Shown here in pieces: positions 29,549-64,000 of a stretch of 64,000 nt of DNA. The position numbers and the translations under genes are program-made. The notes below the pieces were generated by a model that made no database searches, was not told the origin of the DNA, and saw only the letters and a list, made by a program, of their open reading frames with translations. Location of the stretch: positions 1,059 to 65,058 of the forward strand of contig JAPLLS010000093.1 in the NCBI GenBank assembly GCA_026387435.1. The letters run 5' to 3'. Each line of letters starts with the position of its first letter. The stretch's first letter is position 1. This stretch comes from Candidatus Omnitrophota bacterium. GTDB lineage: Bacteria; Omnitrophota; Gorgyraeia; Gygaellales; Profunditerraquicolaceae.

Positions 29549-29566
29549 CCGGGGAGGAATCATAAA

Positions 29567-43375: not shown

Positions 43376-43551
43376 TTGTATCCATCCTTGGGGCGGGTAA
43401 GAAGAAACCGCTTTCAAATTCCGCCCTTGCCCGTCTTGAAAACTACTCTATATATTATATACTTATTATATAAGGTTGAGAGACTCTAGTGCCTTCCAGC
43501 TGGTTACTGGGAGGTCTCTTTTTCTCCACAAAACAAAAAGTTTGTAAAAGT

Positions 43552-44580
43552 ATGATCAATCGGATTTTAGCATTTCTAATTTCGTTTTGTCTTATCTTCG
43601 AGCAGACCGGGTTTGCCCAGCTGGCTATTCCTATAGGCATACCCGGATATTTGAGTTTGCTGGCTCCGGTCGCCGATAAATTCCGGCCGATCCATCTGCG
43701 TTCCATTGATCTTAGCTCCGGTAATGGTAATTTCGAACTCATCCTGGACAAAGGCGACCTCAAGGATATCCAGCCCCGCCAGCTGGAAGAAACGACCAAA
43801 GAACTCTACCGATATTTCCAAATAGGTTTAGCTTTACCGAACAAGTATTTCTGGGTCAACCTCAGGCCGGATTCCCCTGATAGCATGATCGAGCCTTTGC
43901 TGGCCAAGACCGATCTGGGCAAGGTGATGCTAGAAGCCGATCTGCAGCTGAAAAAAGACCTGGCCAATTTTACATCTCTCCAGACTCCGGAAGGCAAACT
44001 TTACTGGGACAAACTTTACTCTAAAGCCAGCGAGCTTTACAACCAGCAGGATATCCAAATTCCCACCTTGACCCGTCCCTGGATCGTTCCCGGAGAAGTG
44101 GTGATTCGCTCTAGCCAAACCGGGGCTTTTGTTTACAAGGCTACGCTTAAGGTAATGCTGGAGCAGGACTATATCAAAGATTCCCCGGCGTATAATTTTA
44201 ACGACCCCCGGCTAAAAGAACTCAATGGTTATTCCTCTCAGCTTATCCGCGAACTGATCATTCCCAAGCTGACCCGGGAAGTCAATTCTTCCCGGCGCTA
44301 CTCGCAATTGCGCCAGGTTTATTATTCGTTGATCCTGGCCCAGTGGTTTAAGTCGAAATCTTTTGGAGTGGCTATGGTCGAAGGTCGGGTGGCGATGGCA
44401 CAAAAGACCGATAGCCAGGACTTGAGCGGGTTGACTTCCAAAACCAGCTGGTCAAAAGACACTTATTTCCAGGCCTACAAGAAGTCGTTCCAGAAAGGCG
44501 AATACAACCAGCAGGAGCAGGTGAATTCGCTCAATGGAATATCGATCCGGCAATACACCAGCGGCGGGATCCAGATAATG
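43552..44580 (+). repeat. About 1.03 kb direct repeat (copy 1): the shared 5' module of the two giant genes.
   Basis: About 88% nucleotide identity to 58476-59504. One example of several long identical runs: cggtcgggtggcgatggcacaaaagaccgatagccaggacttgagcgggttgacttccaaaaccagctggtcaaaagacacttatt occurs in both copies. Confidence 0.85.
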
Positions 44581-50500: not shown

Positions 50501-53500
50501 GTCAGAGCAAGGTAGAGCTGATTGCTGACCGCGACGGCCTGATCGGACTTAATATCGCTTTGCACAAACTGATGCAGAAGTTCGTGAGCGATGAAGTCAC
50601 CCTCGAGAATCCCGAACGCCACCTGTTGACCATGCGCGACATGCGCGGATGGGTCAAGGCGTTCATGAGCGAGTTGGGCAAAGGCGTTTTGCTTGAGGAA
50701 GCGTTCATGACGCCGTTCGAGCTTTTTTACCTGAAGCAATTCAGCCCTGAGGCATATGCGCTGGCGAGGGAACAGGTTGATAGCCTGCTGCTGAATCAGG
50801 AGATCGCCAAGGTGTTCAACAAAAAAGCATTAAAAGAAAGTAATGGGCGGCCATTGAAATACGCGGCAGCCGAAACGATCAGGACAACCCCCTCAAAGAC
50901 AATCAAGTCGGGGTCGGCCGGAAATGTCAAAGCTCAGGCCAATGAACAAAGCCTTATCGCGCATGAATGGACGGGGGAACTAAAGGTAAGCAAAGAAGAT
51001 GCGGTTATGACTGATGAGCGCCTGAAATCTCTCCAGGAATTAGTGGCTAGTCTGAGTTTTCCCGAGTCTTCTGTGCATTTCCACTACGGGGATATGGCAA
51101 TCCTGAAGGGCGCCTCTGGAGAAGATGTGTTCGTGTACACAGAAGCAGGATCGATCATGATTTTAAGAAAGAATTCCGCGGGCAGATTTGAGCGGACTGA
51201 AATCAAGAATTCGTTGCAAGGATCCGGTCGCTCTTTTAACGCGTTTCTCAATGAAAGAGGTTTGCTTACTGTCGTAACCAAGGAGTTTGATAGTGACAAG
51301 ATCACCCTGACCAGGGAAATGGAGCCGGATGTTTTTAGATCCAAGACTATCCAGGTAAACGGCATCGATCATTTTGGCCTTAGCTTTAAGGCGATTCAGG
51401 ATCTTCAGGGCAAGTTGGTTTTTGCCGACACCAACGAGCAAAAGAGCGTGATTACTCTATGCCGGGAGAGGGACAATTTTATTCCTAAAGACCTGATGTT
51501 CTCAGGGCATGATCTTTGCCGCAGGATAGATCTCCTGGAAGACGCGCAAGGAAAGTTGACAATAGCCGTTTCCGGCGAAGATACGCTGGCGATCATGCAG
51601 GAGAAGAACCCGGATGAGTTTGAGGTCAGGGAGCTCCGGAAGTCAACCCTTTCCAACGGCCAAGTCCAGCTGATGCGAGATAAAGAAAGCAAACTGATCA
51701 TTGCTGCCGTCGGAATGTTAAGCGGTACAGGCCCCAAGGATCCCCTTCCGGAGAAGAAAGACGGGCTCACTATCTTGCGGGAAGAGGATGATCAGACTTT
51801 CTCGGAAAGCCGGTTGGAAGGGAAAATTTACGGCAGTTTTGACGCGATGACGGACGAAGAAGGGTTTTTGTCGATAGTTTCATATAATCCGGAAAGACAT
51901 AGCCAAGCGGGGAAGGAAGAGTTGTATAATTCTCCTGAGATTGCTCTCTTGAAAGAGGTCTCGCTTGATGAATTTACCCGGAAGATTATGAAAAGGCCGG
52001 AAGAAAAAACGGTGACCAATAAAGTCAATATATTCAGGGATCAAGATGGCAGCGTGTCATTTGTTTCCGGGCACGTTGGCTATATCAACATCTGGAAAGA
52101 CGATGAGGCGCAGTTTACGGCATTTGGCGCGGCCGACCCGGCCCGGGCTAAGCCGAAGAAGTTCGCCAGCTCCGAAGTAGTTAAGCATACAAGTGGCCCC
52201 ATTGCGACGAAGAACATCGGCGCCTTAGAGGTGAGCGATGTTAAAGATTATTCCGCCGGGGAGCTGAAAACAAAGACAGTCGAAGCGGTCAGCGCGGTCG
52301 GTAAAGTTGAAAATATGAGCTCGAGCGTCTTGCGAGAACTGAAGTTTGAGTTAAGGATCGAGGAGTATCCGAATTTTTCCGGAGATAAGATCAGGGTGGT
52401 CCGGGATGAACAAGGGCTTTTGACCATTGTCACCATTTCTTCCGCGGATATCGCGATCTGGCGGCAGAACGCCGAAGGCGGCTTCGAGGTCTCGATGGTA
52501 AAAGGCGCGCAGGACAATTGGGGCACGCAGATGAGAGTTGTTCCGGGCAGCGACGGGTTGCTTTACATTGTTACCGAAGCTGAAAAAGACGATGGGTTGA
52601 AAGTGTGGCAGGAGATCGAAAAAAATAAGTTCCGGATCACGATCTTGCCGCGCCCCGCTTCAGGCAGAGGATTCGACGCATTTTCTGACGACAAGGGAGG
52701 GCTGACTATTGTCAACAGCCATTCCAGGGCCCAAGATGAAGATTCGATCAAGAACGGGGATTCTACCTTTGATATCTGGGAAATCCATAAAGACGGCTCG
52801 TGTGCCCTGCGCCAGGGGGTGTTGCCTGCAGTTCCAACTCGAAAGAAGGTGTTTTTGCTGTGGGCGGGCAGGGATCCTTCAGGCCGCTTGCAGTTCATGT
52901 GTGACGATCCGGCAAACTCGAATGATATTCTTATTTGCACCGAGGTTCAGAAAGATCGTTTTAGTATCGAGTTATTGAGGGCGGGGAATGAGGATATTCT
53001 GCTTGCTAAGGGAGCGTTCCGGGATGGAGCGGGAAAACTAAATATTTTTGGCCGTATGTCAAAGCAGGGGCCGGTGTTATTCGACCAGACCGAGCAGGGG
53101 AAATTCGTCCAGACAGTATTAGATATGCCTCTGTTTGGGGCGAGTGTCGCGGTGACTAAAAACAGCTGGGGTTTGTATTCGCTGGGGGTGAATAGTAAGG
53201 AGTACGAATCCAGCATAGGTATCGAGTCCAAGGTGAGCCTGATTGCCCAGGGGCAAGACAAAGAATTCCGGGTCAAAAAATTCAGGTTAAGGGAAAATTT
53301 CGACGAAATTATTGCTTTCGTCGATGAAGAAGGATACAGCACGTTCGTGTCAAGCCATGAGGGAGTGATCAGGATCTGGAAAGACGATGAGGAACGGTTC
53401 AAGAAAGCGCCTGAGCCATTGCCGGATGAGCAGGAAGAATTCGTCGATAAGGGGTTGACCATCGGATCTGAGGAACAGGTTAAGGCTGATCTGTCCAGGG

Positions 53501-56500
53501 TCTTCGAATACGGAGCGCACGGTTTGCTGCTTTTGGAACCGGGTGCGCGGGAACATCAGATTATCAGGGAATTCGGAAAAGAAAACGGCTACCAGTTGCT
53601 TCATCTTGAAAGCGTTCCGGAAATGACCGATATGGAGATCATCGGAGGGCTCTTCCCGATACTGGAGGATGAGCCGCGGGATAACGGCAGGGAATTCCGC
53701 GTCAAGCCGGGATTCCTCAGCCGCCACCTGGTGCCCGAGGAACAGCGCAACGAGCCGGGCAAAAAGAAGCTGCTGATTTTGCATAATATCGACGCTCTTC
53801 CGGAGCGGGTCCGCGCGGCGCTGAATAATTTCCTGATCAAGGGTTACTTGGAGATCAAGGATGATTCGGGCAGGAGCAAAAGGTATTATCTGCCTTCCGG
53901 CACGGACATCGTCGCGACGATATCCTCAAAAAGCCAGCGGGAATTTTCATCCGCGTTCTTCAACAGGTTCGTCAAAATTTATGTGCCATCGATAAAAGTA
54001 TTCCACCGGGGTTTTTCCGAACTGCTCCAGTTATTGATGTTCCAGTGCGGTCTTTCGGAATACGAAGCGCGCCAGCTGCAGAAGATCTATATCATGGTCA
54101 AGGCTCTGGAAGAAGGCGGCCAGTTCTGGCCTTCGGGGACCGATTATAATTTCACGGCCAAGGACGCGCTGCTCTTAGGAGAATTCGTCAGGCTGGCCAG
54201 GCAGGAAGCAGGCGGACAACTGGGCCGGAAAGACATGGAACGGTTGATCGTTCAGGAAGCGCTGCGCGCCTACGGTGGCCGGCTCTGCGAGCATGAAGAG
54301 GATTATACTAATTTTGTCGATTTGATCCTTAAGAATATTTTCGATCACGAAGTGGTAGAGGAGCTTTCCGGTGAGGTTTTGATGGAAGAAGGCCGACTGC
54401 TCGCTCTTTCGGGAGTGAATCTTCCCGCGGGAAGCCGCGGCTTGGCCTGGGATAAGACCGATCCGCGCTACCGCTTGACCCTGGTGCCGACGATCACCCG
54501 GACGATGTCCGGGATCCTGCGCGGATGGCAGGCGGGCAGGATGGTCAGCATTGTCGGCGAGACCGGGGTGGCCAAGACCACGATGGGTGTTTTTCTTTCC
54601 CAATTGCTGTTCGGAGCGTCAAACGGCATGGAGCATTATTACATCTACTCGACCCACGGCGAATCCAAGGCCAGGGACATGACCGTTCAGCTGCGCATGA
54701 ACCGCGAAGGGGCATTCCGCTTGGAGATGCAGGAATTCCTCAAGCGGGTCAAAGCCGGCAACCAGGTGATAATAGTCGACGAAGCGAACATGCGCCCGGA
54801 AATGCTCTGGGTGCTCAACGGCATTGCCCGCGGTGAGAAAGAGGTAAGCGTGGAGATCCCCGGTGAAGAGCCGTTTACCGTCGAGATTGGCGACAATGTC
54901 TATATCCTTCTGACTATGAACCCGGAGAGTTACACTGACCGCGGAGAGGTCCCGGGAGTGCTTCTGGAGAATGTTTTCCGGCTCTGGGCACCGGCACGTT
55001 ACGCTCAAGATGAGGTCATCCGGATCCTGAATGATCTTATCGACGCCTCCCAGCAGGCGGCGGTTTCCAAACGGTTATCGTTAATACAGGCGCGGTCAAC
55101 GCTTTCCGGAGCGGCGGCGCTGGTGACCCTTGAGGATTTTATCAAGCGCGTCGATGAGATAGGCTTCGATAATGCGCTGGAAGAACGCACGATCAAAGAA
55201 TTGCGCAAGCTGGAGAGGGATATCCTGGCCATGGAAAGCGTGCGAAAGAAGATGAACAAGGTGCGCTCCGGTGTGGCGGTCGCCGTTCCTAAAACCCGGA
55301 TCATCTTCTCGATCCTGACCTGGTGGGGTTCGACCGACGACCGCACGACCATCATCGTTCCGCTGCACGAGCTGGCCAATTCCAAGCGCACTCCCGAGAC
55401 GATCATCGGGATCGTCCTGCATGAGGCGCGCCATCAGCTTTATTCGCTTTCTCACCCGGAAATGGAAAAAGTCGCGGAGCCCGAACATTTGCAGATCGTA
55501 AAAAAAGAAGAATTCCACAATTTCTGGAACGGCTTGGAGGATGTGCGCATAAATTATATCAACGATCCGGTAATGGCCGGGGAACGCGCTTATATCAAGG
55601 CCTCGCTTGATGAGATGTGTAAGGATCTGACCCAGGAGCAGATCTCCGAGATGGTAAAGAACTATGAGTTCGAGATGGACAATATCTTCTTATTTGAGCT
55701 GGTTTTTTACGGAAGGACAGGCCGCTACCGGAATTCATTCGCCTCCCTTCCTGAGCCGATGCAGCAGGCGCTTAGATCGGTCATCGAGAAAAACGGCGCG
55801 GAACAATCATTGCTTGATCAGGTTACGAACAACGAGCAGGTCCTGCCGGATATGGCCGGGATACAGCAGGGGAAAAAGGATTTTGCCCAGGAGCGTTTGC
55901 GCTCGGGAAAGGTTTCGCTGGGCGCGATGTGCGCGAAGATCTGGCCAATATACGAGAAACTATTGAAGCAGGCCGATGAAAACCGCGAGAAAGCCGGCAA
56001 GAAAAAAGAGGGCAAAGGCGGGCGCGGCAAGGGAGGGGGTAAAGGTAGTGGCGGGCAAAGAGACGGAATGCCGTCATTCGGAAGGATTAGTCGGGAAGAA
56101 TTGGAGGATCTGATCGAAAATACTCCTCTTGGCGCGCTGCCTGAATCGCTGAGGGGCGGCCGGTCCGGCGGCAGACCCGGGAGAGGTAATCCAGCCGGCC
56201 AGGATGATGCCGGGGGTGGCGAGGGATCGGAAGGGGACGGATCCGAGGGAGATAATAACGACGATAACCAGTCAGGGCGGCCGAATTTCATGAATGACGA
56301 AGACCGCGACAAGGACGCGGATAATGATCTGGATAGAAAGATCAATGAGGCCAAGAATAAGCGTACGGAAGAGATGAAGAAAAATGAACCGTTAAATTAC
56401 GCTTTAAGCAATATTCCGGCGGCCAGTAAGCGGCTTGCCGACGGACTGGTGCAGCTGTTCCGCGTCCCGGACGAGCCGGATATAGAGGAGTCTCCTTCAG

Positions 56501-58470
56501 GATGGAAGATAAATCCGGTGCGCTATCTTTTGCGCAACATGAATCCCTTCGACGAAGAAGAAGACCGGCCGGGTAAGCCTGATCTGGCGTTCGGGGTGAC
56601 CATAGATCTGAGCGGCAGCATGCAGGGGTATTTTAAAGCGATCAAGGACATGAACGCGCTGTTCATGGCTACGTTCCAGAAGATCGGCAGGAAAAAGATA
56701 GATTACAGCATGGGTTACGAGAACAGGGCTTTCGGGGTGGTCAAGGCATTCGACGAGAAGCTGGGGCAGTCAGAATTGAACCGCAAATACGGGGAGTTCG
56801 GCGCCATCATCGATGCCCGCGGAAGGCCGGAAGATATAGGGGGAGAGGGGATCCATCTCTATGTCGCGGTGTGCGGAGTGATCGATAAATACAAGGCCAC
56901 TAAAAAGAAGAATAAGATCGAGATTATCATTACCGATGGGCAGGATATGGGAGGAGACTTGAGTTACGACATGTCCGGTCGTCCGATACCTTCTTTCAGG
57001 CTGAAACGCAAGCTGGATGAAGCCCGGCACCTGGGGATCGAGATCGTGGGGGTTGGTTTTAATACCCGCGATACCGAGGTCTTCGGAAAGTGGGTGCAGC
57101 TGGACGCGAACCAGGCGGACGCGGTGGTGGAGGCGCTTCTAAAGATCGCGCGCAGAAAGGCGCTCAGCGGCAAGCTGCCTGACGGGAACCTGGTTTCGGC
57201 GCTGAATATCAACCTCAACAGGTCCTGGGATAAAAGTCGAGCCGACGGCGGCAGCGAAGAGGCGGGATTCCGGTACGGCCAGAACGATAATGTTCAAACG
57301 GAAGATTTCGGTATTTCCCGCACAGCGCTTTCAACCCAGCAGCTTGGGCAGATGGAGCGGGGGGACGCGGTCATTACCATCGGCAGCTCCAAAGAATGGC
57401 GGGAAGCGAATGAGTCATACGCAGGATTCGTATTCAAGAATGGGACATTAATGCGATCCTGGGCGGCCGGAAAACCGCCGGCGATAAGCGGTGTTGTGCT
57501 GGCGAAATCCCTTGTCCGTGCCCAATCAAGACAGGAAGACAAGTCAGGGGGGGCGGTCAGCAAATATAGTGATTTTCGTACCGATTTAGAATCGTACAAT
57601 CGGCGTTTTTCTCCTCTTCTGGGAACAAAGATAGAGGAATATGTGATCGCGCAGGTGCGAAAAACAAAACAGATAATGCGGATCCTTGATTGGGGCTGCG
57701 GCGAAGGAGTCGCTTTAGTTGAACTGCTCAAGCGCCTGCCTGAAGATGTGCGTCCTATGGTCAAACTGTACGGCTTTAGCAATATGTATTTCGACGACTG
57801 GAAATTCCCCGAAGCAGCTGGTATCGATTTTATCCTCGATGACGGCCAGAACATCGGCTCTTATTTCGGAGGGGAACTCCCGATCGACATGGTCATCAGC
57901 AATCTCGGCTTGTGCCATGTCGAAGATATCGCTTATCTGGAAAAGATCGGCGCGATCATGAAGGACGAGGGGATACTGTTGACCGATGCTGTTTATGATG
58001 AACAGACCTGGGAAGACTGGCAAAAGTCGGCAAGGCAATTGTTCGAAATCAACTTTGATAAAAGAGCGACAAGATTAATGGCAAAGAAGAAGTCAACTTC
58101 CCGACCAGTCGGTCAGGACGGTGGAACGGCGCAAACAGATGATTTGGGCGGTATCGATTTTCGCCAGATCCCAGTAGCTGGTGAATCAGCGGTGACTACA
58201 GCGCTTACTCCGCAGCTGCAGCAGCTGGCGCAGAATTCCAAGATGGCAGATTTGGACCAGGAATGGAGCTGCATCCGTGGAGAAATGCTCGCTCCCCAGA
58301 TGCCGTACGGGAAGATCAGGGAATACATCGCGGTCTGCCTGAGCAGGCCGGGCTGCCGGAAGAAACTGGACCAGGCAGTAACCTGCATCATCGATATTCT
58401 CAGGATGGAAGAAGATCAGGCTCTGGCTACTAACCAGGAGCTCAAAGATATATTGATGTATTTAAGCTAA
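43552..58470 (+). CDS. Giant (about 4,973 aa) secreted or anchored midasin-like protein. It has an N-terminal conserved module, five or more AAA+ (AAA_5/MoxR-dynein class) modules, a repeat-rich linker, an acidic low-complexity tract, a VWA/MIDAS domain and a C-terminal class I SAM methyltransferase-like domain.
   Basis: One uninterrupted ORF. The start is chosen at MINRILAFLISFCLIFEQTGFA (signal-like), in line with the downstream paralog. Walker A motifs: GPTGTGKT (~46785), GEPGGGKT (~49981) and GETGVAKT (~54557). Degenerate AAA_5 modules at ~45556-45710 and ~53521-54000 carry the family's ...HP.F.hhhT.NP-like signatures. MIDAS motif DLSGS at 56604-56618, with ITDGQD at ~56925. MTase motif I ILDWGCGEG at 57681-57707. 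Confidence 0.85.
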   Translation: MINRILAFLISFCLIFEQTGFAQLAIPIGIPGYLSLLAPVADKFRPIHLRSIDLSSGNGNFELILDKGDLKDIQPRQLEETTKELYRYFQIGLALPNKYFWVNLRPDSPDSMIEPLLAKTDLGKVMLEADLQLKKDLANFTSLQTPEGKLYWDKLYSKASELYNQQDIQIPTLTRPWIVPGEVVIRSSQTGAFVYKATLKVMLEQDYIKDSPAYNFNDPRLKELNGYSSQLIRELIIPKLTREVNSSRRYSQLRQVYYSLILAQWFKSKSFGVAMVEGRVAMAQKTDSQDLSGLTSKTSWSKDTYFQAYKKSFQKGEYNQQEQVNSLNGISIRQYTSGGIQIMDQLKIQEIPGSVADFFTGNQEYFARLSMNSLTGDVNILPASPVLKSGGAQEFDGGKKISQESEKAKDAKRGNDQAFSSVREKFMLLTEAEKEELNRRLRELHQDSLSQTSLNKEESDREFYTITIREQRRFIAVFLDKFCAEIDLEVALRKEEAAVRTLGYLFSKIAGLFAKYLSKKKEIGKNRLEAVKRREIFDRAWQEASRIYLDMFPQPEKRTWNAPANVPAIYAEAYDKLQSCLTTDIPALFLYSLESRDSLDRAFELYQRNNPQVIVERVICTPDSDRMQLIGADMPVSAQDREFSKEKIRFQKGVLYRLVDQAKADPSKIFVLRLEQVEALSAKVWVQLNQFLLTGELWIPETNEKLILPDNLKIVASLSSGLRDSAFYDRFLRKQLNIPDRKSLVDYAVTRFGLPQVLIEEYCNLQADNSDKITMGQLLVLFSYMKGRLADENISANSQRGRAIITEERDLFFRSMARGKENILLAMGKKEEEPGGGNDPDTEMLNEVLEFSTENRLQITADFTPEEIGEIVLKYPADWKNKLKELKLIKEEERDLFFLARRSNEGPLKGINPDDETAMMVLEYGGKIGEVYSRMGELRTYAGLHKIDLSLEEARVIAILAPDQIEGILKGREDVSEVLMLVEMRMAFQSVITIVPGVKNVLVFEPKTGRFMADGVELPIRSELKDKIAEAMKTRDMEQAIREVFKAELGLTLTQDVARTLSAISRNYRYGTRVLRLEGPTGTGKTFMAQALAKMLDIPFYGEPFHAASKQSKLLGALKPDEKADYYMDSDTPFLQILEKGGVVALSELNAAVKDDKARFGWLMVPLARGDEKFILNQYPDGKETTRELTRHPDSMVIIDINPTESYEARGQLPGPLNEVTPAVWVEGRFESQELEDISGDYLAGLAQEDLDYYRGKIAGLHFAIQQELADEDGPWRQEEKEKREKFGGVDITQMLKAGRMSPMKAMKVFGPMFGVKMEGHDEEMAIQKTLAIDAPHIISLRELKRACRMIAENNGKLSREQNLIEAVMFYYGFAFKEIGDQERVERFIRRILAPSAPKWEPPIAIEKFVASGHRVICLVLDPEGADMQELRKAMKNNEIDKLNIERINGWVPLEVAKQGKIVNAEKEYPRLRATIEQLFENDSESFEKSIGFLITLKKQNKPDQGVVVSNELDQKLQELKSAAEQWAGSGNKLVKPWEMLDMIEKEQQRKSGTTVEVMAKVLAGKPPSISKEFAKKLLELRSRPARTSGVAEEIEKELKETPPPFVSSGTNDIPLRTRSVREDIRDWGTNPDRPIVARPDMKSDEYGVMVMDVDGTLIGSRLSGVAEDIEKELIKLMRSAVEPATGVPVDWNQIMLKYLKEPEPPLAEFQDKGLQYYLDYSLFRTKEPTLLSMDAVNDPMAQLRSAAEKRGRVVIEKLNTNLFTDDFTLFGGYIPDSEREAETGEAQLRLADGAMSRFIAQAAKAREEDKNLPEAERRIFVLAFENYHYLRPQIAVALNVILQERVYYPPTSTDRIELPDNLRFFATATNEAEFNLSLAEQSRWARIFFHKPNGPAPQADNDLYSSADPGLAGMLPTVAGGAMPYDNDSISAKDLMRMARVDVEGMLVNKPSRPPSDSGSMTTAGGAMLDILTSASELAEKYLKDAGIKIKIEDNGKITLPELREMKYKRLGSLEEKLKGADDKEISSFAQDDLVPRFTADPKLEQLIEDYCREFPAVDKEEVRVAAEAVAKKKGPGEEPVTIKEVQYTSAEELRNAYKIEPFERQHEPLAEEELMVPTNELLRQESMMVNAMNRGQVIICEGEPGGGKTDMGIDIAERLGLDSYIYSGHAGAHLRDFIGAYTKDEKGRFVLTCLPDKDGHFKVPFLEFYTHGGVYTFDEGALGKYPQALISWLTGIARGEQELVINEHPGQEPLRLKRHKHFHIVITTNPVDETPGRESISVEVLKAARRIWVENKLSDASYQAILDRFYDFYSRQSKVELIADRDGLIGLNIALHKLMQKFVSDEVTLENPERHLLTMRDMRGWVKAFMSELGKGVLLEEAFMTPFELFYLKQFSPEAYALAREQVDSLLLNQEIAKVFNKKALKESNGRPLKYAAAETIRTTPSKTIKSGSAGNVKAQANEQSLIAHEWTGELKVSKEDAVMTDERLKSLQELVASLSFPESSVHFHYGDMAILKGASGEDVFVYTEAGSIMILRKNSAGRFERTEIKNSLQGSGRSFNAFLNERGLLTVVTKEFDSDKITLTREMEPDVFRSKTIQVNGIDHFGLSFKAIQDLQGKLVFADTNEQKSVITLCRERDNFIPKDLMFSGHDLCRRIDLLEDAQGKLTIAVSGEDTLAIMQEKNPDEFEVRELRKSTLSNGQVQLMRDKESKLIIAAVGMLSGTGPKDPLPEKKDGLTILREEDDQTFSESRLEGKIYGSFDAMTDEEGFLSIVSYNPERHSQAGKEELYNSPEIALLKEVSLDEFTRKIMKRPEEKTVTNKVNIFRDQDGSVSFVSGHVGYINIWKDDEAQFTAFGAADPARAKPKKFASSEVVKHTSGPIATKNIGALEVSDVKDYSAGELKTKTVEAVSAVGKVENMSSSVLRELKFELRIEEYPNFSGDKIRVVRDEQGLLTIVTISSADIAIWRQNAEGGFEVSMVKGAQDNWGTQMRVVPGSDGLLYIVTEAEKDDGLKVWQEIEKNKFRITILPRPASGRGFDAFSDDKGGLTIVNSHSRAQDEDSIKNGDSTFDIWEIHKDGSCALRQGVLPAVPTRKKVFLLWAGRDPSGRLQFMCDDPANSNDILICTEVQKDRFSIELLRAGNEDILLAKGAFRDGAGKLNIFGRMSKQGPVLFDQTEQGKFVQTVLDMPLFGASVAVTKNSWGLYSLGVNSKEYESSIGIESKVSLIAQGQDKEFRVKKFRLRENFDEIIAFVDEEGYSTFVSSHEGVIRIWKDDEERFKKAPEPLPDEQEEFVDKGLTIGSEEQVKADLSRVFEYGAHGLLLLEPGAREHQIIREFGKENGYQLLHLESVPEMTDMEIIGGLFPILEDEPRDNGREFRVKPGFLSRHLVPEEQRNEPGKKKLLILHNIDALPERVRAALNNFLIKGYLEIKDDSGRSKRYYLPSGTDIVATISSKSQREFSSAFFNRFVKIYVPSIKVFHRGFSELLQLLMFQCGLSEYEARQLQKIYIMVKALEEGGQFWPSGTDYNFTAKDALLLGEFVRLARQEAGGQLGRKDMERLIVQEALRAYGGRLCEHEEDYTNFVDLILKNIFDHEVVEELSGEVLMEEGRLLALSGVNLPAGSRGLAWDKTDPRYRLTLVPTITRTMSGILRGWQAGRMVSIVGETGVAKTTMGVFLSQLLFGASNGMEHYYIYSTHGESKARDMTVQLRMNREGAFRLEMQEFLKRVKAGNQVIIVDEANMRPEMLWVLNGIARGEKEVSVEIPGEEPFTVEIGDNVYILLTMNPESYTDRGEVPGVLLENVFRLWAPARYAQDEVIRILNDLIDASQQAAVSKRLSLIQARSTLSGAAALVTLEDFIKRVDEIGFDNALEERTIKELRKLERDILAMESVRKKMNKVRSGVAVAVPKTRIIFSILTWWGSTDDRTTIIVPLHELANSKRTPETIIGIVLHEARHQLYSLSHPEMEKVAEPEHLQIVKKEEFHNFWNGLEDVRINYINDPVMAGERAYIKASLDEMCKDLTQEQISEMVKNYEFEMDNIFLFELVFYGRTGRYRNSFASLPEPMQQALRSVIEKNGAEQSLLDQVTNNEQVLPDMAGIQQGKKDFAQERLRSGKVSLGAMCAKIWPIYEKLLKQADENREKAGKKKEGKGGRGKGGGKGSGGQRDGMPSFGRISREELEDLIENTPLGALPESLRGGRSGGRPGRGNPAGQDDAGGGEGSEGDGSEGDNNDDNQSGRPNFMNDEDRDKDADNDLDRKINEAKNKRTEEMKKNEPLNYALSNIPAASKRLADGLVQLFRVPDEPDIEESPSGWKINPVRYLLRNMNPFDEEEDRPGKPDLAFGVTIDLSGSMQGYFKAIKDMNALFMATFQKIGRKKIDYSMGYENRAFGVVKAFDEKLGQSELNRKYGEFGAIIDARGRPEDIGGEGIHLYVAVCGVIDKYKATKKKNKIEIIITDGQDMGGDLSYDMSGRPIPSFRLKRKLDEARHLGIEIVGVGFNTRDTEVFGKWVQLDANQADAVVEALLKIARRKALSGKLPDGNLVSALNINLNRSWDKSRADGGSEEAGFRYGQNDNVQTEDFGISRTALSTQQLGQMERGDAVITIGSSKEWREANESYAGFVFKNGTLMRSWAAGKPPAISGVVLAKSLVRAQSRQEDKSGGAVSKYSDFRTDLESYNRRFSPLLGTKIEEYVIAQVRKTKQIMRILDWGCGEGVALVELLKRLPEDVRPMVKLYGFSNMYFDDWKFPEAAGIDFILDDGQNIGSYFGGELPIDMVISNLGLCHVEDIAYLEKIGAIMKDEGILLTDAVYDEQTWEDWQKSARQLFEINFDKRATRLMAKKKSTSRPVGQDGGTAQTDDLGGIDFRQIPVAGESAVTTALTPQLQQLAQNSKMADLDQEWSCIRGEMLAPQMPYGKIREYIAVCLSRPGCRKKLDQAVTCIIDILRMEEDQALATNQELKDILMYLS

Positions 58471-58475
58471 AACTA

Positions 58476-59504
58476 TGATCAAACAGATAGTAGCATTCCT
58501 AATCTCATTTTGCTTAATTTTCGAACAGACCGGGTTTGCCAAGCTGGCTATTCCTATGGGCATACCTGGTTATTTAAGTTCGCTCGCTCCGGTTGCCGAT
58601 AAATTCCGGCCAATCCATCTGCGTTCCATTGATCTCAATCCCGGTAATGGTAATTTTGAACTTATCCTGGATAAAGGCGACCTGAATGATATCCAGCCCC
58701 GTCAGTTGGAAGAAACCACCCAACAGCTTTACCGGTATTTCCAGGTAGGATTAGTTTTGCCGAACAAGTATTTCTGGGTCAACCTCAGGCCGGATTCCCC
58801 GGATGAAGTTATCGAGCCTTTACTGGAAAAGACCGATGTCGGCCGGATCATGTTAGCTAGCGATCTGCAATTAAAGAAAGACCTGGCCAATTTCACTTCT
58901 CCCCAGACTCCGGAAGGCAAACTTTACTGGGACAGGCTTTACGCCAAAGCAGGTGAGCTTTACAACCAGCAAGATATTCAAATCCCCACCTTGACCAGGC
59001 CGTGGATAGTTCCCGGGGAAATCGTGATCCGTTCCAGCCCAACCGGGGCTTTTGTTTACAAGGCTACTTTAAAAGTAATGCTGGAGCAGGACTATATCAA
59101 AGATTCCCCGGCTTATAATTTCAGCGACCCAAGGCTAAAAGAGTTGAACAGTTATTCCTCCAAGCTTATCCGCGAACTGATCATTCCCAAGCTGACCCGG
59201 GAAGTCAACTCATCCAAAAGATACGCTCAGTTGCGCCAGGTGTATTATTCGTTGATCCTGGCCCAGTGGTTTAAGTCGAAATCTTTTGGAATGGCTATGA
59301 TCGAAGGTCGGGTGGCGATGGCACAAAAGACCGATAGCCAGGACTTGAGCGGGTTGACTTCCAAAACCAGCTGGTCAAAAGACACTTATTATCGGGATTA
59401 CCGTAAATCATTCCAGAAGGGGGAATACAATCGCCAGGAGCAGGTCAGTTCCGTCTCAGGCCTTTCCATCCGCCAGTATTTCAGCGGCGGGATCATGATG
59501 ATGG
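58476..59504 (+). repeat. About 1.03 kb direct repeat (copy 2): the shared 5' module of the two giant genes.
   Basis: See copy 1. Identity falls off after ...SGGI(Q/M)IMD. Confidence 0.85.
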
Positions 59505-62500
59505 ATAAGCCGGTTGGAGAGTGGACCGTGATCAGTAAAGACGGCGGATTTGCGGCTAACCAGCCATTTTTCGAGCGGTTGGCCATAGATTCCCGCGGGG
59601 ATGTTGCTAATTTACCGGCCAGCTCTACTTTAGCCGACGGCGGACAGAAAACCAATGTGCCCAGTGTAGAAACGGTTAAGGCCGCTTCCGGTTCCAACCC
59701 AAAAAAGGCTGTGCGTTTACGCGATATCCCTCAGAAAATCATAGATTACGAAGCTTATTTAGCTCCGCCGTTGGGCGTAGGGGCTGCGGTATTCGTGTAT
59801 TCTATCAGTCCGGTTTTACTGTTGTGGCTGATCCCCGTCGGAATTGCCGCCGTAGCTATAATCGGAGCGGAGCTTGCGTCATTAGAGTATCGTAATATAA
59901 AGAAAACCGATCCGGATCTGCTTTTGATCGTCCGGGGAAATCCGCTTAGCCTGATCAATGCCGTAGAATCGTTGGCATTGGGATTAGACGGGATCTTTGA
60001 TATGGGGGAAGTCTGGCGTTCCCCGAGTAAAGTTTTTGTCAACCTTACCCGGATTATGTACTCTTTGCCGACAGGGCTTATTTGGACCGCCATGGAATTG
60101 GCCATTGATTACTTTAATGGTTCGCGCACGGGTGAAAATATTCTTAAATCCAAGCTGGATATGATGCGCTTTGCGATCCGCCACTCAAGCGGGATCAATC
60201 CGCTAAAAGTCATGTACAAGTTATTTCCTAGGTGGTGTTTTGCCAAAGGCGATGTCGAACGCAGGTTCATGCTTTATGAGACAACGCTGTTGCATGTACG
60301 AAGCAGCGGCGACCTTGAGGCCGCCAAGGAAGACACTTTCCGAAACAATACTTTCTTTGCTTCTGAAGCGGCTTTTTACCACCTGCTCAAACAGTTAAAG
60401 TTGGAAGAGTTCGATGAGACCCTGGAGAAAATTAAACAAGGCGACAACATCCTTTATCGGGGGTCGCAGATCAAGAAAAAGAACATAAGTTCCGATGACC
60501 TGATCAATCTCTATCTGGCAGAGCGCAACAGTATCTGGCAAGTACGTCAGGATAGAGGTTTGACTGAACAGGACCAGGCGCTTATTGATTTTTTCGCCAA
60601 ACGCGGCTTATCCGCCACACCCGATTACCGGAATATGCCGTATTATGCGTTCGTTGTTTTAAAATTGCTTGACCGGCATTTCAAGGATTACTTCAGCGCA
60701 AATGAACTCCTGGGAACACCCAAGTGTAACGAGCTTCTGGAAATGGACCACTTGACGAATGAGGAAGTCATCAAGGATTTGATAGAAGCAAGGATCGTCA
60801 TCGAAAACGGCGATGAATATTTCCTCTCTGAAAACTTCAAACAAATCTTCCTGCGATTCCTCGATAAAAACTACAGCGAAATAACCGAAGCCGAGCTTTC
60901 CGGAGTGCCCGAACACGAAGGAGCGCTCCATGTCGACGGTAAATTATATCGCTGGGCTCAAAACGCGGCATCATCGCAGCGGGGCAAAGAGGCGTTAGAC
61001 GGCGGCACGAAATCAATAATGCAAGCGCAGGGGCAAAATAAAATAAAGGTGATTAACTATCCCCGCAGCGGAGTAATAGCGGAACCGAATGTTATCGGTT
61101 TGAAGAATATCGTTACCGGCAAAGATTTTGAACTCCGCAGGATCAGCTCGAAGAAGAACAGTTTTTCGGTATGGATGGATAATGTCAAACTAAAAAGCCT
61201 TTTCGAGTTTGATGAGGATGAAAAGGAGGTCGCCGTACATAATATGGCCGTTCCGAGCGAGTATACTTCGCAGGGAATAGGGCTTACCGTCCTGCGATAT
61301 TTGGCCCAGCGCGCCAGGACAGGAGGCAAGGATCTGGTTTTACATACCGTATTCAGTTATGCCGTGGCCCGGATGTGCTACGAACATATCAGTAAGAATG
61401 CGCGATACCGGGAAAAGGTGCGTCATATTGAAGATGAGTTCGCCAAAATGATCTCAGTGCGGTTATTGGATGACGGCAGGGTTTTGGCGGACTGGAAGTC
61501 GGCTGCGGGAAAATCACCTCTTACCTACCAGGTTTTTTTATCAAAAGGCGTTTTGGATATTTCTATCAGGAACGAAGATATTATGACGACAGGGGAGGAA
61601 TCCGATGGCGGAAAGGAGTTAGAGGTCGCAGAGGCAGGGTTGAACCGGGATGATATGGAGAAATGGGTTTCTGATGCTTTGGAGAGGCCTGAACTCGCAG
61701 CGGGCATAAAGTCGGATGTCGGCGATGTGCTGGAGATGTCCGAGCAAGAGCTGGGGGGATGGTACGATTATTTCAGGGCGCGCGCGCTCAAGCAGTTGCG
61801 CGAATCGAAATCAGTCAGGATGCTGGAGAACAAAAAAGGTTTCAAGCTCTGGTTCCGGCTGAATGACTTTGACTTGGGTGGGTTGTTGTATCTTCTGGAT
61901 GAATTTAAAGATCATTCTTTGTCGCCGGAAGTTTCTTCGGCGCGAACAAAGCCCGGGATCTTAGAATCGCGCTGGCTGCGGTATACGATGCTGTTTTTGT
62001 TTGGGGCAACGCTATTTTCGAGTTTAGTCCCTCTTGTTTCCGGCTTAGACGCGCAGCTACTTGAAAATCACAGCGGTACAAACAACACCTTTGACCAGCC
62101 GGTTACCGTTTCTACTGAGGTTTTGTTCGACGAAATCCTCTCCCAGGATCGATCCCAGCTTGTGGTCGTGAACCCCTACCTGGAACAATATGTCAATAAG
62201 CTGCTGGACTGGGATAGTAAGGATTTAAAGAACAAAGCTTCTAAACTCACTGTTATCAGCACCCGCGACTTAAGAACTTCCGGGGAATTTAATAATCTTT
62301 TACAAAGCGAAAAGAAGCAAGGCAACGCGGACAGGGTAATTTTTGTCGGGAAATACGATAAATATCAGATAACACAATATCTTTCGCAGGATCAAAAGCT
62401 GGCGGTTGGCGATAGCGGGCGCATAAATAAACTAATCTCATTGCGCGACCAGCTTAATAATCTGACCGCCGGTATGGACCCGAACGCTTTCTATGAATAC

Positions 62501-64000
62501 GTCAGTTATCGAAATAAACTCAATAGATGGCCTACCGAGAAAGCGATCAGCATCCAAGGCGGGACTCCCCAGGAGCAGATCGATCGGACAGAGCGAGATT
62601 TGGCGCAAACCCAGGCGTGGGTTGATCAAAACAAGGAGCAATTCCAGGAAACCTACGATCGGTTTTTAGAGTATGATAATTTGCTGTACGATGAGACATC
62701 CGAAGGCAACGTCCCGGCTTACCTGGAAGAAAATAATCTGACGGTCCAATCGCTGTTCCCGGATATTTTTAATCAAGCCCAACGGGGCAAGCACGCCTCT
62801 CATGTCGAGAAATTCATTTTAGACCATCAAATCAACGGCCAGATACCCGGCAATATGGTCTCTGAGATAGTGGAGCCATTACCGGACTTATTTCTGTCCG
62901 GACACAACAAAACTTACGGCCAGGATCAGAACCGGCCGTTATTGCTTGTGGTCGAAGGCGACGCGATACAATCTTTGAGTCAATACCTGAGTGATTACCA
63001 ATTTTACGGCGCAAGAGAAGGCCGCGTTATCGAAGTGTTTAATCCCACCGGACGGGATCTGGGAGAAAGCGTTTCTTACGTCGAATATAAAGGTGAGTTA
63101 GGTTATCAGATAGGGTTTTTAGGGAATAATTCCGGGATGGCTAAAAATAATTACCGGCCTGATGACCTGAAAACGCTGGAGGAGCTGGAAAAACTAAAGG
63201 AAAAAGTGAACGGGCTCGCGCAAAATTATGATGGCGATCCCGCCGCTGATTACGACAAGTATAGGCGCCTCTCGGATGAAAGTTACGAAATCAGCCTTCA
63301 TATGCTGGCTATTGAGACTTCGGAGGACGCTTATGAAAGACGCCAGGAATGGGAGGATTACAACAGGCAGCATGATGAACTTCAGCCTGAGCTGGATAAG
63401 ATAAGCGGAAAACTGGGCCAACCGCTTCTCTGGGCAACGTACAAATTCAAAGAGAAGCTCTACGAGGAAGAGCGAACAGGAGCAATCTACAGGCTTATTC
63501 AGGCGGGGAACGATCCTCAAAGCTGGTTCCCTGTGACTTTTAGCAAGGATTCATCCTTCCAGTATGGCAGTTCTCTCTTTCCGGACGCGATATACTCATT
63601 GAAAACCTACGAAAAGGTGGGTGGGGCTTATCATGAGCATGATGCGGATAAGATAAAGGATATTGAGAAAGCCAAAGCCCTAAAGATACTGCTGGAAGCA
63701 TCGCTAAGCGACTACAAGAAAAACCACCCCAACTCAACTTTCGAGAAAGATTGTGAAGAACTTAAGTCGAGGATAACCAAATCTGATACTGACGTTTACA
63801 TGGAAATATTATTCAGCGGAGACCCCCGGGCTAAAGATATCTGCAGGATCCTGGACATTGAGGGCGCCCTCGGGCAAAGCGGATTTTACGGTGTCTATCA
63901 GGGGGAAGACGGCAAGATTTACTCGAGCGAAGAATCTTATCATGCCTACAGGGATTACACTGCTTTCAGGGATTATGTCGAGGCGAAATGGGGATCCGAA
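58476..64000 (+). CDS. Second giant gene, open at the 3' end of the window with at least 1,841 codons. It shares the N-terminal ~343-aa module with the upstream giant protein and then diverges into a transmembrane-containing region and further uncharacterised domains.
   Basis: ATG 58476 lies 5 nt after the upstream stop. The translation MIKQIVAFLISFCLIFEQTGFAKLAIPMGIPGYLSSLAPVADKFRPIHLRSIDL... parallels the upstream N-terminus. The frame was checked by eye and no stop was seen through 64000. The ORF track omitted it because no stop falls in the window. Confidence 0.7.

What the first reader, a model, noticed from the sequence alone, without database searches (positions are those of the whole stretch)
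58476..59504. Two consecutive giant genes share a ~1 kb 5' module at about 88% nucleotide identity
The first ~343 codons of both giant ORFs are near-identical at the protein level: ILAFLISFCLIFEQTGFA...PIHLRSIDL...YFWVNLRPDSPD...WFKSKSFG(V/M)AM(V/I)EGRVAMAQKTDSQDLSGLTSKTSWSKDTY. After that they diverge completely, into the AAA+ array in one and a transmembrane/other-domain protein in the other. This looks like a shared secretion, anchoring or targeting cassette reused on different cargo proteins, comparable to polymorphic toxin or adhesin systems. As a kilobase-scale direct repeat it is also a recombination substrate that could delete or swap the 15-kb gene. The two genes are separated by only 5 nt, which suggests translational coupling.
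Basis: seen in the sequence. Interest (0 to 1): 0.75.

Follow-up and report, generated by a model that had tools for sequence, protein, structure and literature searches.

The report
Shared end-caps on Omnitrophota cargo proteins
The 1-kb repeat is real: it encodes a signal peptide plus an uncharacterised domain that starts thousands of otherwise unrelated Omnitrophota proteins, nearly all of which also end in a second shared domain, so it looks like a phylum-wide scaffold for exporting or handling variable cargo.

Summary
Gene 1 (43552-58470, 4972 aa) and gene 2 (58475 to beyond 64000) share their first ~390 codons: 1036 nt at 85% identity and 81% at the protein level (86% over the first 345 aa). 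Nothing else is shared. The genes are 4 nt apart, not 5.

The module is a Sec-type signal peptide plus a ~320-aa alpha/beta domain ("N-cap"). It has no Pfam, NCBIfam or PDB match. A profile search finds it in 7,756 cluster representatives, always at the extreme N-terminus, on proteins up to 7,391 aa. The named hits come almost entirely from Omnitrophota MAGs, with up to 9 or more copies per MAG, often in tandem.

Gene 1 and about 90% of complete family members end in a ~115-aa "GGIDF + helical bundle" domain ("C-cap"). The stretch between the caps (78-6,911 aa) is essentially unrelated between members, even when the caps are 90-95% identical.

The window pair is unusually similar for this family. 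It carries a 90-nt perfect tract and mosaic sites, which indicate gene conversion.

An export or anchoring role is inferred, not shown. The cargo needs ATP or SAM, which creates an unresolved topology paradox. The two Omnitrophota giant-protein papers I read do not describe this family.

The parts
43436..43463 (+). Promoter-like site (TTGAAA-16-TATACT) upstream of gene 1
   Evidence: 10 of 12 consensus matches. This is a consensus match only, not evidence of function.
43548..44583 (+). Repeat copy A, the 5' module of gene 1
   Evidence: BLASTN (1036 nt, 85.0% identity to copy B); alignment.
43552..58470 (+). Gene 1 (4972 aa): signal peptide, N-cap, ~4,460-aa cargo, C-cap
   Evidence: ORF. Start set at ATG 43552 because family homology begins there. 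Domains.
43552..43617 (+). Gene 1 signal peptide, aa 1-22 (MINRILAFLISFCLIFEQTGFA|Q)
   Evidence: family-wide anatomy: n-region net charge +3, h-region 12 uncharged residues, G at -3 (91%), A at -1 (91%), Q at +1 (93%). The AF2 model has helix 2-19 followed by a disordered stretch.
43618..44586 (+). Gene 1 N-cap domain, aa 23-345, mixed alpha/beta
   Evidence: 47 invariant columns across 44 sequences. AF2 pLDDT 80, pTM 0.77. No PDB fold match. No Pfam or NCBIfam hit.
44378..44467 (+). 90-nt tract identical to 59301-59390 (candidate gene-conversion tract, copy A)
   Evidence: longest perfect run, permutation p ~1e-4; 49 consecutive codons with identical third positions (0 of 20,000 permutations); pS ~0 for codons 257-305, against 0.40 overall.
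46780..47010 (+). Gene 1 cargo: AAA_5 ATPase domain 1 (Walker A at aa 1079)
49978..50382 (+). Gene 1 cargo: AAA_5/AAA_7 ATPase domain 2 (Walker A at aa 2144)
54550..54930 (+). Gene 1 cargo: AAA_5 ATPase domain 3 (no canonical Walker A found)
57658..57993 (+). Gene 1 cargo: weak SAM-methyltransferase-like region
   Evidence: Methyltransf_23, 23.8-24.7 bits, below the gathering score of 27.
58123..58467 (+). Gene 1 C-cap, aa 4858-4972: GGIDF motif (58147-58161) plus a helical bundle
   Evidence: local HMM, E 3.9e-36. Present at the extreme C-terminus in 55 of 59 and 112 of 132 family proteins. AF2 of the homolog P0085 shows a strand at GGID and helices with pLDDT ~90.
58471..58474 (+). 4-nt spacer (AACT) between the gene 1 stop and the gene 2 start
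   Evidence: No promoter-like or terminator-like site on the + strand in 57900-58700.
58471..59506 (+). Repeat copy B, the 5' module of gene 2
58475..64000 (+). Gene 2 (at least 1841 aa; runs off the window): signal peptide, N-cap, TM region, orphan cargo
   Evidence: The cargo has no homolog in the 5.8e9-protein database and none in the PDB.
58475..58540 (+). Gene 2 signal peptide, aa 1-22 (MIKQIVAFLISFCLIFEQTGFA|K)
58541..59509 (+). Gene 2 N-cap domain, aa 23-345
59301..59390 (+). 90-nt tract identical to 44378-44467 (copy B)
59759..59869 (+). Gene 2 hydrophobic region, aa ~429-465 (one long or two hairpin TM helices)
   Evidence: Kyte-Doolittle 19-residue window, peak 2.62.
61991..62047 (+). 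Gene 2 second TM-like segment, aa 1173-1191
   Evidence: Kyte-Doolittle 1.89.

Best explanation
The repeat is the 5' end of two adjacent paralogs of a very large protein family, seen almost only in Omnitrophota, that the papers I read do not describe.

Each member is built the same way. It has a Sec-type signal peptide, a ~320-aa conserved alpha/beta domain (N-cap), a middle of 78 to ~6,900 aa that is essentially unrelated between members (cargo), and a ~115-aa conserved C-terminal domain (C-cap: a GGIDF strand plus a helical bundle).

Proposed mechanism:
1. The signal peptide takes the N-terminus across the cytoplasmic membrane (inferred from sequence features).
2. The two caps are the constant 'handling' parts. 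They would give recognition, anchoring or translocation by machinery common to all members. They probably pack against each other, so that the cargo is a giant insertion between them (inferred).
3. The cargo supplies the member-specific activity. In gene 1 this is a three-AAA_5 ATPase array plus a weak methyltransferase-like region. In gene 2 it is an orphan, membrane-spanning sequence. Because much cargo across the family depends on nucleotides or SAM, it most plausibly acts inside another cell, as effectors of these host-dependent bacteria (speculative).
4. The caps also act as homology arms. Paralogs exchange or homogenise cap sequence by gene conversion, and cargo is replaced between conserved caps (shown as a pattern; the process is inferred).

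The window pair is an unusually young or homogenised tandem pair under purifying selection. It is probably co-transcribed.
For: Shown:
- Repeat and divergence.
- Signal-peptide anatomy across 228 members: net charge +3, 12-residue h-region, G-F-A|Q site.
- The N-cap is always at residues 1-20 of its protein, in 7,756 representatives of 50%-identity clusters, on proteins up to 7,391 aa.
- 413 genomic stretches, almost all in Omnitrophota MAGs, multi-copy, with same-strand tandem arrays in L002, L003, L014, L029, L053 and L067.
- The C-cap sits at the extreme C-terminus in 55 of 59 complete locus ORFs and 112 of 132 long representatives, including gene 1.
- Cargo is unrelated. Mean cargo coverage by BLASTP hits is at most 1.5% for pairs below 80% N-cap identity. 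Many pairs have N-caps 88-95% and C-caps 71-91% identical with zero cargo similarity.
- The SGG-to-GGID distance is 78-6,911 aa, median 1,092.
- N-cap and C-cap identities co-vary: r = 0.75, Mantel 0 of 500.
- AF2 models are confident for both caps. The pTM of 0.72 for a 537-aa member equals the fraction of residues in the N-cap plus C-cap, which suggests one rigid unit.
- Purifying selection on the window pair: dN/dS 0.15.
- Gene conversion: a 90-nt perfect tract (p ~1e-4) lying in the part that the family consensus shows as its most variable, and conflicting site patterns of 56/48/37 against the syntenic ortholog L078, with a g2=L078 patch at nt 331-386.
- No promoter-like or terminator-like site between the genes.
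Against: - No experiment or proteomic datum shows export. No dedicated signal-peptide or topology predictor could be run.
- Gene 1 and 109 of 169 complete members have no TM segment after the signal peptide. Yet the cargo includes AAA+ ATPases, kinases, methyltransferases, glucose-6-phosphate isomerase and GNAT-like domains, which need cytoplasmic cofactors.
- No secretion system, chaperone or other conserved partner gene lies next to family genes. Neighbours are housekeeping genes.
- N-cap/C-cap docking rests on pTM arithmetic and a DSSP strand assignment only. Neither PAE nor coordinates were available.
- Paralog N-caps within a MAG are as divergent as those between MAGs (58% vs 56% median). 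Homogenisation is therefore sporadic, not general.
- Gene 2's C-terminus lies outside the window, so its C-cap is predicted, not seen.
Confidence: 0.6

Rival explanations
1. The N-cap is not a targeting or handling module. It is an autonomous periplasmic or surface domain, such as an enzyme or binding domain, and its own activity is the point. The variable remainder would modulate or localise it, and the sharing between the two genes would simply reflect tandem duplication.
For: Very strong conservation, including many invariant charged and polar residues (R50, D130, K134, K135, D136, R175, E182, K196, E204, D206, N225, R233, R254, Q255, K267). Stand-alone N-cap-only proteins exist (P0060 350 aa, P0081 342 aa, P0099 347 aa, and L003 ORF 19412 at 347 aa). 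dN/dS is 0.15.
Against: No similarity to any enzyme family or fold. The domain is always at the extreme N-terminus and almost always paired with the same C-cap. Cargo turnover between nearly identical caps fits constant handles better than a constant catalytic head.
Confidence: 0.2
2. The proteins stay in the cytoplasm or at the inner face of the membrane. The N-terminal hydrophobic stretch would be an uncleaved tether or a buried helix. The caps would mediate assembly or oligomerisation of giant cytoplasmic multi-enzyme proteins, as the terminal domains of spidroins do.
For: The cargo domains are of cytoplasmic type and need ATP, SAM or acetyl-CoA. Most members have no further TM segment. No secretion genes lie nearby.
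Against: The positively charged n-region, the fixed 12-residue h-region (too short for a TM anchor) and the G-F-A|Q site are classical features of a cleaved Sec signal peptide. The positive-inside rule places the downstream chain outside the cytoplasm. The 2026 preprint reports SP-only and SP+TM classes among long Omnitrophota proteins using DeepTMHMM.
Confidence: 0.15
3. This is a polymorphic-toxin or contact-dependent-inhibition type system: an N-terminal trafficking domain, a variable toxin and an immunity gene.
For: A conserved N-terminus with variable downstream sequence, multiple copies per genome, and recombination signatures.
Against: The C-terminal tip is the conserved part, not the variable part. 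No toxin, Rhs, TPS, LXG or PT-type domain was found by Pfam. The gene directly downstream of gene 1 is another family member, and neighbours elsewhere are housekeeping genes rather than small immunity genes.
Confidence: 0.04
4. Assembly or binning artefact: a chimeric join duplicated one 5' module.
For: The related contig L078 breaks inside the N-cap, which shows that assemblers struggle with this repeat.
Against: The copies are 15% diverged with a codon-level purifying pattern. Both frames are open for 4972 and at least 1841 codons. Equivalent tandem arrays occur in many independent MAGs.
Confidence: 0.01

Closest known systems
MARTX toxins (multifunctional-autoprocessing repeats-in-toxin; comparison from my own knowledge, not tested against sequences here)
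   Same: Very large proteins in which conserved N- and C-terminal regions flank a central array of exchangeable effector domains. The repertoire differs between close relatives through recombination. The conserved arms are thought to deliver the middle into a target cell.
   Different: MARTX arms are glycine-rich repeat regions, the proteins carry a cysteine protease domain, and they use a type I secretion system with no N-terminal signal peptide. Gene 1 has no internal repeats, no Peptidase_C80 hit, a Sec-type signal peptide, and no T1SS genes in the window.
Polymorphic toxin systems (Zhang et al. 2012, PMC3482391)
   Same: A conserved N-terminal trafficking part reused on diverse downstream modules, multiple copies, and diversification driven by recombination.
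   Different: In polymorphic toxins the extreme C-terminus is the variable toxin and is followed by an immunity gene. Here the extreme C-terminus is conserved, the variable part is internal, no toxin or immunity signature was found, and the cargo is kilobases long.
Mycobacterial PE/PPE families (own knowledge)
   Same: A lineage-restricted multigene family defined by a conserved N-terminal domain that heads highly variable, sometimes very long, C-terminal regions. Genes are often adjacent, and the N-domain serves secretion.
   Different: PE and PPE N-domains are ~110 and ~180-aa helical hairpins exported by type VII secretion, without Sec signal peptides and without a conserved C-cap. There is no sequence or fold relationship to the N-cap.
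Giant Omnitrophota proteins of the Archaeovorin and Dockerin types (West-Roberts et al. 2023, bioRxiv 10.1101/2023.11.21.568195) and the long-protein catalogue of bioRxiv 10.64898/2026.06.07.730766
   Same: Same phylum. Very long, mostly unannotated, sequence-unique proteins with signal peptides and scattered enzyme domains (AAA_5, methyltransferases, kinases, GNAT). Their N-terminal regions are said to 'lack identifiable domains'.
   Different: Those papers treat proteins above 10,000-30,000 aa that have many TM helices, SecA_DEAD domains and flanking T2SS/T4P loci. In the passages my term searches returned, neither describes a conserved ~320-aa N-terminal domain or a conserved C-terminal domain. 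Gene 1 and gene 2 lack SecA_DEAD and have no secretion-system neighbours in the window.
Spidroins (conserved N- and C-terminal domains flanking a variable core; PMC2928236 surfaced)
   Same: Conserved, non-repetitive terminal domains bracket a long and highly variable middle. The terminal domains evolve together, and clustered paralogs undergo homogenisation.
   Different: Spidroins are eukaryotic, their core is repetitive and structural, and there is no homology. The analogy is architectural only.

Membership tests
N-cap/C-cap protein family of Omnitrophota (unnamed; defined here) | Sec-type signal peptide followed by the conserved N-cap at the extreme N-terminus | tested here: met
   Both gene 1 and gene 2 match.
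N-cap/C-cap protein family of Omnitrophota (unnamed; defined here) | Conserved GGIDF + helical C-cap at the extreme C-terminus | tested here: met
   Gene 1 aa 4858-4972, local HMM E 3.9e-36. For gene 2 this cannot be tested because the gene runs off the window.
N-cap/C-cap protein family of Omnitrophota (unnamed; defined here) | Middle region unrelated to that of other members | tested here: met
   Apart from the caps, the only hits are a 164-aa block shared with L001 and a weak 25% match to P0248. The gene 2 cargo has no database homolog.
Polymorphic toxin systems | Variable toxin domain at the extreme C-terminus | tested here: not met
   The C-terminus is the conserved C-cap. No toxin domain was found.
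Polymorphic toxin systems | Small immunity gene immediately downstream | tested here: not met
   Another family member starts 4 nt downstream of gene 1. No recurrent small neighbour family appears across 77 loci, though only ORFs of at least 90 aa were examined.
MARTX toxins | Glycine-rich repeat arms and a cysteine protease domain (Peptidase_C80) | tested here: not met
   Gene 1 has no internal repeats in a self-BLAST and no Peptidase_C80 hit.
MARTX toxins | Type I secretion genes and a C-terminal T1SS signal; no Sec signal peptide | tested here: not met
   A Sec-type signal peptide is present. The only nearby efflux genes are an OEP/HlyD-family/AcrB (RND-type) cluster at 27381-32716, about 11 kb upstream, with no ABC exporter detected.
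Archaeovorin-type giant proteins (West-Roberts 2023) | More than 30,000 aa, numerous TM helices, SecA_DEAD domain, T2SS-like locus upstream | tested here: not met
   Gene 1 is 4972 aa with no TM segment after the signal peptide. It has no SecA_DEAD hit. The upstream gene is LeuRS and other neighbours are housekeeping genes.
Autotransporters (T5SS) and T9SS substrates | C-terminal beta-barrel translocator, or a beta-sandwich CTD | tested here: not met
AAA_5 (MoxR/dynein/midasin-type) ATPases (gene 1 cargo only) | Pfam AAA_5 match above the gathering score, with a Walker A motif | tested here: met
   Whole-protein AAA_5 score is 72.9 bits against a cutoff of 22. There are three separate AAA_5 regions, with Walker A motifs at aa 1079 and 2144. 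Whether they form a ring was not tested.

The most novel reading that the evidence does not exclude
The N-cap and C-cap are two halves of one folded unit, a 'clasp' of previously unseen fold. The end of the N-cap (invariant SGG) and the start of the C-cap (invariant GG-I-D) would pair as adjacent strands, and any cargo from 80 to 7,000 aa is inserted between them. With thousands of members, this family would be the main effector or surface arsenal of Omnitrophota, which are host-dependent. It would be exported by a shared route, with cargo exchanged by recombination between the caps. The two GG junctions might also be processing sites that release the cargo.
Probability: 0.3. Interest if true: 0.85.

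Novelty: new variant of a known kind. Interest (0 to 1): 0.7.

Why it matters
Omnitrophota are ubiquitous ultra-small bacteria thought to live on or prey on other microbes. Their giant, mostly unannotated proteins are an open puzzle.

This family supplies a concrete organising principle for many of those proteins: two conserved caps around interchangeable cargo. It provides two new domain definitions, which can be used to annotate several thousand proteins now labelled 'hypothetical' and to join fragmented giant genes.

It also raises a testable question. How are ATP-dependent machines that carry a Sec signal peptide deployed, and are they delivered into host cells?

The kilobase-scale, in-frame repeats explain assembly breaks. 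They may also contribute to the hypervariable loci next to housekeeping genes reported in complete Omnitrophota genomes; this link is a lead and was not tested.

Tried and rejected
- A single-sequence search with the C-cap found only 2 proteins because of the word prefilter. I replaced it with a local HMM.
- A degenerate-pattern scan of JGI metagenome contigs for the conversion tract found nothing, so no population variants or deletion alleles could be examined.
- The gene 2 cargo search returned no homolog. PDB sequence searches with both cargos were empty.
- I attempted a TM-parity test (an even number of TM segments between the caps) with a Kyte-Doolittle script. Overlapping windows were double-counted, so I use only the statement 'no TM-like segment in 109 of 169'.
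- DGG motifs at domain borders are only weakly enriched: 4 observed against 0.5 expected in gene 2, and 3 against 1.9 in gene 1. I did not pursue this.
- An Rfam scan of the gene 1 leader found nothing.
- The viral collection holds only 2 loci among 2.9 million contigs, so a phage or mobile-element origin is rejected.
- The neighbour census found only housekeeping genes, so a dedicated adjacent partner is rejected at the 10-kb scale.
Full report
OBSERVATION

Two long ORFs lie head to tail on the + strand. Gene 1 is 43552-58470 (4972 aa). The mechanical ORF starts at GTG 43489, but homology to relatives begins at ATG 43552. Gene 2 starts at ATG 58475 and runs off the window, giving at least 1841 aa.

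BLASTN aligns 43548-44583 with 58471-59506: 1036 nt at 85.0% identity. BLASTP aligns residues 1-391 with 1-390 at 80.8% identity, and the first 345 residues are 86.4% identical. Nothing else is shared, and gene 1 has no internal repeat.

The gene 1 stop codon (TAA, 58468-58470) and the gene 2 ATG are separated by 4 nt. No promoter-like or terminator-like site lies between them. A promoter-like site lies upstream of gene 1 at 43436-43463. The observation therefore stands, with small corrections: 85% rather than 88% identity, a start at 58475, and a 4-nt spacer.

WHAT THE MODULE IS

Neither Pfam nor NCBIfam recognises the module, even at permissive thresholds. A profile of it finds no PDB sequence.

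The first 22 residues have the anatomy of a cleaved Sec signal peptide, and this holds across 228 relatives. The n-region has a median net charge of +3. The h-region is 12 uncharged residues. The c-region is unusually conserved, F-[E/Q]-Q-[S/T]-G-F-A|Q-V-A, with G at -3 in 91%, A at -1 in 91% and Q at +1 in 93%. My anchoring on a small-x-small motif makes this partly circular.

A VERY LARGE FAMILY, SEEN ALMOST ONLY IN OMNITROPHOTA

The word-indexed search gave 331 hits. Those with a source name come almost entirely from Omnitrophota/Omnitrophica MAGs.

The exhaustive profile search of 1.84 billion cluster representatives gave 7,756 proteins at E <= 1e-3, of which 6,466 are at E <= 1e-30. In the top 150, the match begins at residues 1-21 in all but two proteins. 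Lengths reach 7,391 aa.

In one-genome-per-species contigs, 413 stretches encode the domain. Single MAGs hold at least 7-9 copies. Same-strand tandem arrays are common: four copies in L003, three each in L002 and L014, and two each in L029, L053 and L067.

The viral collection holds only two loci. Neighbouring genes are housekeeping genes such as an RsmI-like methyltransferase, GlmS, GyrA/B and tRNA synthetases. No recurrent secretion, chaperone or immunity partner appears.

In the window, the upstream genes are also housekeeping: Dus, an MFS transporter, RlmN, a GDSL lipase, an AP endonuclease and LeuRS. Farther upstream is an RND efflux operon. A related ENA contig (L078) is syntenic (GDSL, PG-binding, AP endonuclease, LeuRS, N-cap) at ~86% nucleotide identity. 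That contig ends inside the N-cap, a typical assembly break at a repeat.

THE SECOND CAP

The last ~115 residues of gene 1 (58123-58467) match the C-termini of small homologs that begin with the same N-cap. They also match the ends of N-cap ORFs in 25 tblastn matches across 20 loci.

A local HMM finds this C-cap at the extreme C-terminus in 55 of 59 complete N-cap ORFs. The four exceptions are two truncated ORFs, one N-cap-only ORF and one of 563 aa. It is also at the C-terminus in 112 of 132 long representatives, and many of the rest are probably truncated at contig ends.

THE CARGO

The distance from the invariant SGG that ends the N-cap to the GGID that starts the C-cap ranges from 78 to 6,911 residues, with a median of 1,092 (n = 177).

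Cargo is essentially unrelated between members. Mean cargo coverage by BLASTP hits is at most 1.5% for pairs below 80% N-cap identity, and 10% at 80-90%. Only pairs above 90% usually share cargo.

Even so, many pairs with N-caps 88-95% identical and C-caps 71-91% identical have no detectable cargo similarity, and their cargo lengths differ by thousands of residues. This includes the tandem pair in L053. Such pairs cannot arise by gradual divergence. They require either cargo replacement between the caps or cap homogenisation between paralogs.

A Pfam census of 24 members found mostly dark sequence. Sporadic hits were to cytoplasmic-type enzymes: HD, methyltransferases, ABC1 and APH kinases, glucose-6-phosphate isomerase, guanylate kinase, a metallophosphatase, HATPase_c, M48 peptidase and FHA.

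Gene 1 carries three AAA_5 (dynein/midasin/MoxR-type) regions, two with Walker A motifs, and a weak methyltransferase-like region. Gene 2 has a hydrophobic region at aa ~429-465, a second TM-like segment at aa 1173-1191 and a weak GNAT hit.

The gene 2 cargo has no homolog in the 5.8-billion-protein database or in the PDB. Its only relatives are a 164-aa, 69%-identical block at a non-collinear position in L001 and a 25% match in P0248. This is a mosaic pattern.

EVOLUTION OF THE WINDOW PAIR

Across 342 codons, dS is 0.57 and dN is 0.083, giving dN/dS 0.15. The pair is therefore not a very recent duplication, and the domain is under purifying selection.

Codons ~257-305 have essentially no synonymous differences. 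A perfect 90-nt run (44378-44467 and 59301-59390) has a permutation p of ~1e-4. Forty-nine consecutive codons have identical third positions (0 of 20,000 permutations). This tract falls in the part of the N-cap that the family consensus shows as its most variable. That argues for a recent gene-conversion tract rather than selective constraint.

Against the syntenic ortholog in L078, informative sites split 56 (g1=g2), 48 (g2=L078) and 37 (g1=L078). A cluster of g2=L078 sites lies at nt 331-386. This again indicates a mosaic history.

The pair is atypical for the family. Paralog N-caps within a MAG have a median identity of 58%, against 56% between MAGs. Only 2% of within-MAG pairs exceed 80%, and both of those are adjacent tandem genes, here and in L053.

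Because the repeats are collinear and in frame, unequal crossing-over within the identical tract would delete 14,923 bp and fuse a hybrid N-cap to the gene 2 cargo. This is inferred; no reads were available to test it.

HOW IT MOST LIKELY WORKS

Shown: the architecture (signal peptide, N-cap, variable cargo, C-cap), its scale, its near-restriction to Omnitrophota, the unrelatedness of the cargo, and the recombination signatures.

Inferred:
(a) Export of the N-terminus by Sec.
(b) The caps are the constant parts, recognised by or anchoring to machinery common to all members.
(c) The caps pack together. N-cap and C-cap identities co-vary strongly (r = 0.75, Mantel 0 of 500). The pTM of 0.72 for P0085 is what is expected if about 385 of its 537 residues, the N-cap plus the C-cap, form one rigid body. 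Shared descent could also produce the covariation, and I had no PAE.

Speculative: because 109 of 169 complete members, including gene 1, have no TM segment after the signal peptide yet carry ATP- or SAM-dependent domains, the cargo may act inside another cell. That would fit the host-dependent or predatory lifestyle proposed for the phylum (papers read). The alternative is that these proteins stay in the cytoplasm despite the signal-like N-terminus. This cannot be excluded, and it is the main unresolved point.

COMPARISON WITH KNOWN SYSTEMS

The logic resembles MARTX toxins (conserved arms around swappable effectors), polymorphic toxins and PE/PPE proteins (conserved N-terminal trafficking domains on variable bodies). 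Each membership test that I could run failed. The C-terminus is conserved rather than a variable toxin. There is no downstream immunity gene. There are no glycine-rich repeats and no CPD. No T1SS, T7SS or T2SS genes lie nearby. The C-cap is helical, not a beta-barrel or beta-sandwich.

The two papers on giant Omnitrophota proteins describe N-terminal regions that 'lack identifiable domains' and a landscape of sequence-unique proteins. In the passages I searched, neither describes these caps. Other literature searches found nothing closer. The library is incomplete, so prior description elsewhere cannot be excluded.

VERDICT

It is greatly extended by the C-cap and by the size of the family. 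Its functional label (secretion or anchoring) and its polymorphic-toxin analogy remain unproven or only partly apt.

I rate this a new variant of a known kind: modular proteins with conserved ends and exchangeable cargo, built here from two domains that have no recognisable relatives. Interest: 0.7.

Noticed in passing
window 58123-58467 (gene 1 aa 4858-4972): Conserved C-terminal 'GGIDF + helical bundle' domain. It is shared with the C-termini of ~90% of complete proteins that start with the N-module.
   Followed up: yes
window 44560-44568 and 59483-59491 (SGG); 58147-58161 (GGIDF); 44677-44697 and 59597-59617 (GDVxNLP): The N-cap ends with an invariant S-G-G(-I), and the C-cap starts with an invariant G-G-(I)-D. 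A GGIDF-like 'GDV(x)NLP' motif follows the N-cap in both genes and is predicted as a strand in the gene 1 model. These may be paired strands or processing sites.
   Followed up: partly
window 43491-43515 (hairpin) between the promoter-like site 43436-43463 and ATG 43552: A terminator-like hairpin followed by a T-run lies in the presumed 5' leader of gene 1, and its sequence is conserved in the syntenic contig L078. It could be the LeuRS terminator or a leader attenuator. It has no Rfam match.
   Followed up: partly
L053 37-621, 653-9979, 10001-15919: A second example of adjacent family genes with near-identical caps (N-caps 89%, C-caps 86%) and completely unrelated cargo of 2553 and 1417 aa. 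The C-cap of a third, upstream copy sits at the locus start.
   Followed up: partly
L078 (ENA contig k141_2517720), 5622-6401: Syntenic locus from a related species (~86% nt identity). The contig ends inside the N-cap, and the ORF is cut at 233 aa. This is a likely assembly break or chimera at the repeat. It implies that family genes are systematically fragmented in short-read MAGs.
   Followed up: partly
window 2634-5477: A 947-aa ORF that combines a Peptidase_M1 domain (aa 285-505) with a C-terminal Omp85-superfamily domain (aa 710-936). This is an unusual fusion.
   Followed up: no
window 59648-63997 (gene 2 cargo): 1450 aa with no homolog at E <= 1e-5 among 5.8 billion proteins and none in the PDB. 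The only relatives are a 164-aa block in L001 (69% identity, non-collinear) and a 25% match in P0248.
   Followed up: yes
window, gene 1 aa 396, 4565, 4856; gene 2 aa 356, 388, 842, 1044: 'DGG' tripeptides recur at apparent domain borders, and about 10 residues before GGIDF in one C-cap subfamily. Enrichment is modest: 4 observed against 0.5 expected in gene 2.
   Followed up: partly
window 46780-54930: Three widely spaced AAA_5 (dynein/midasin-type) domains with a weak midasin AAA-lid hit lie on a protein that carries a signal peptide. Whether they form a ring with undetected degenerate AAA modules is unknown.
   Followed up: partly
L079 and L080 (IMG/VR contigs): Two contigs labelled viral encode N-cap proteins. 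They are probably misclassified cellular fragments, but I did not inspect them.
   Followed up: no
window 968-2626: A 552-aa ORF with no Pfam match at E <= 1e-5.
   Followed up: no
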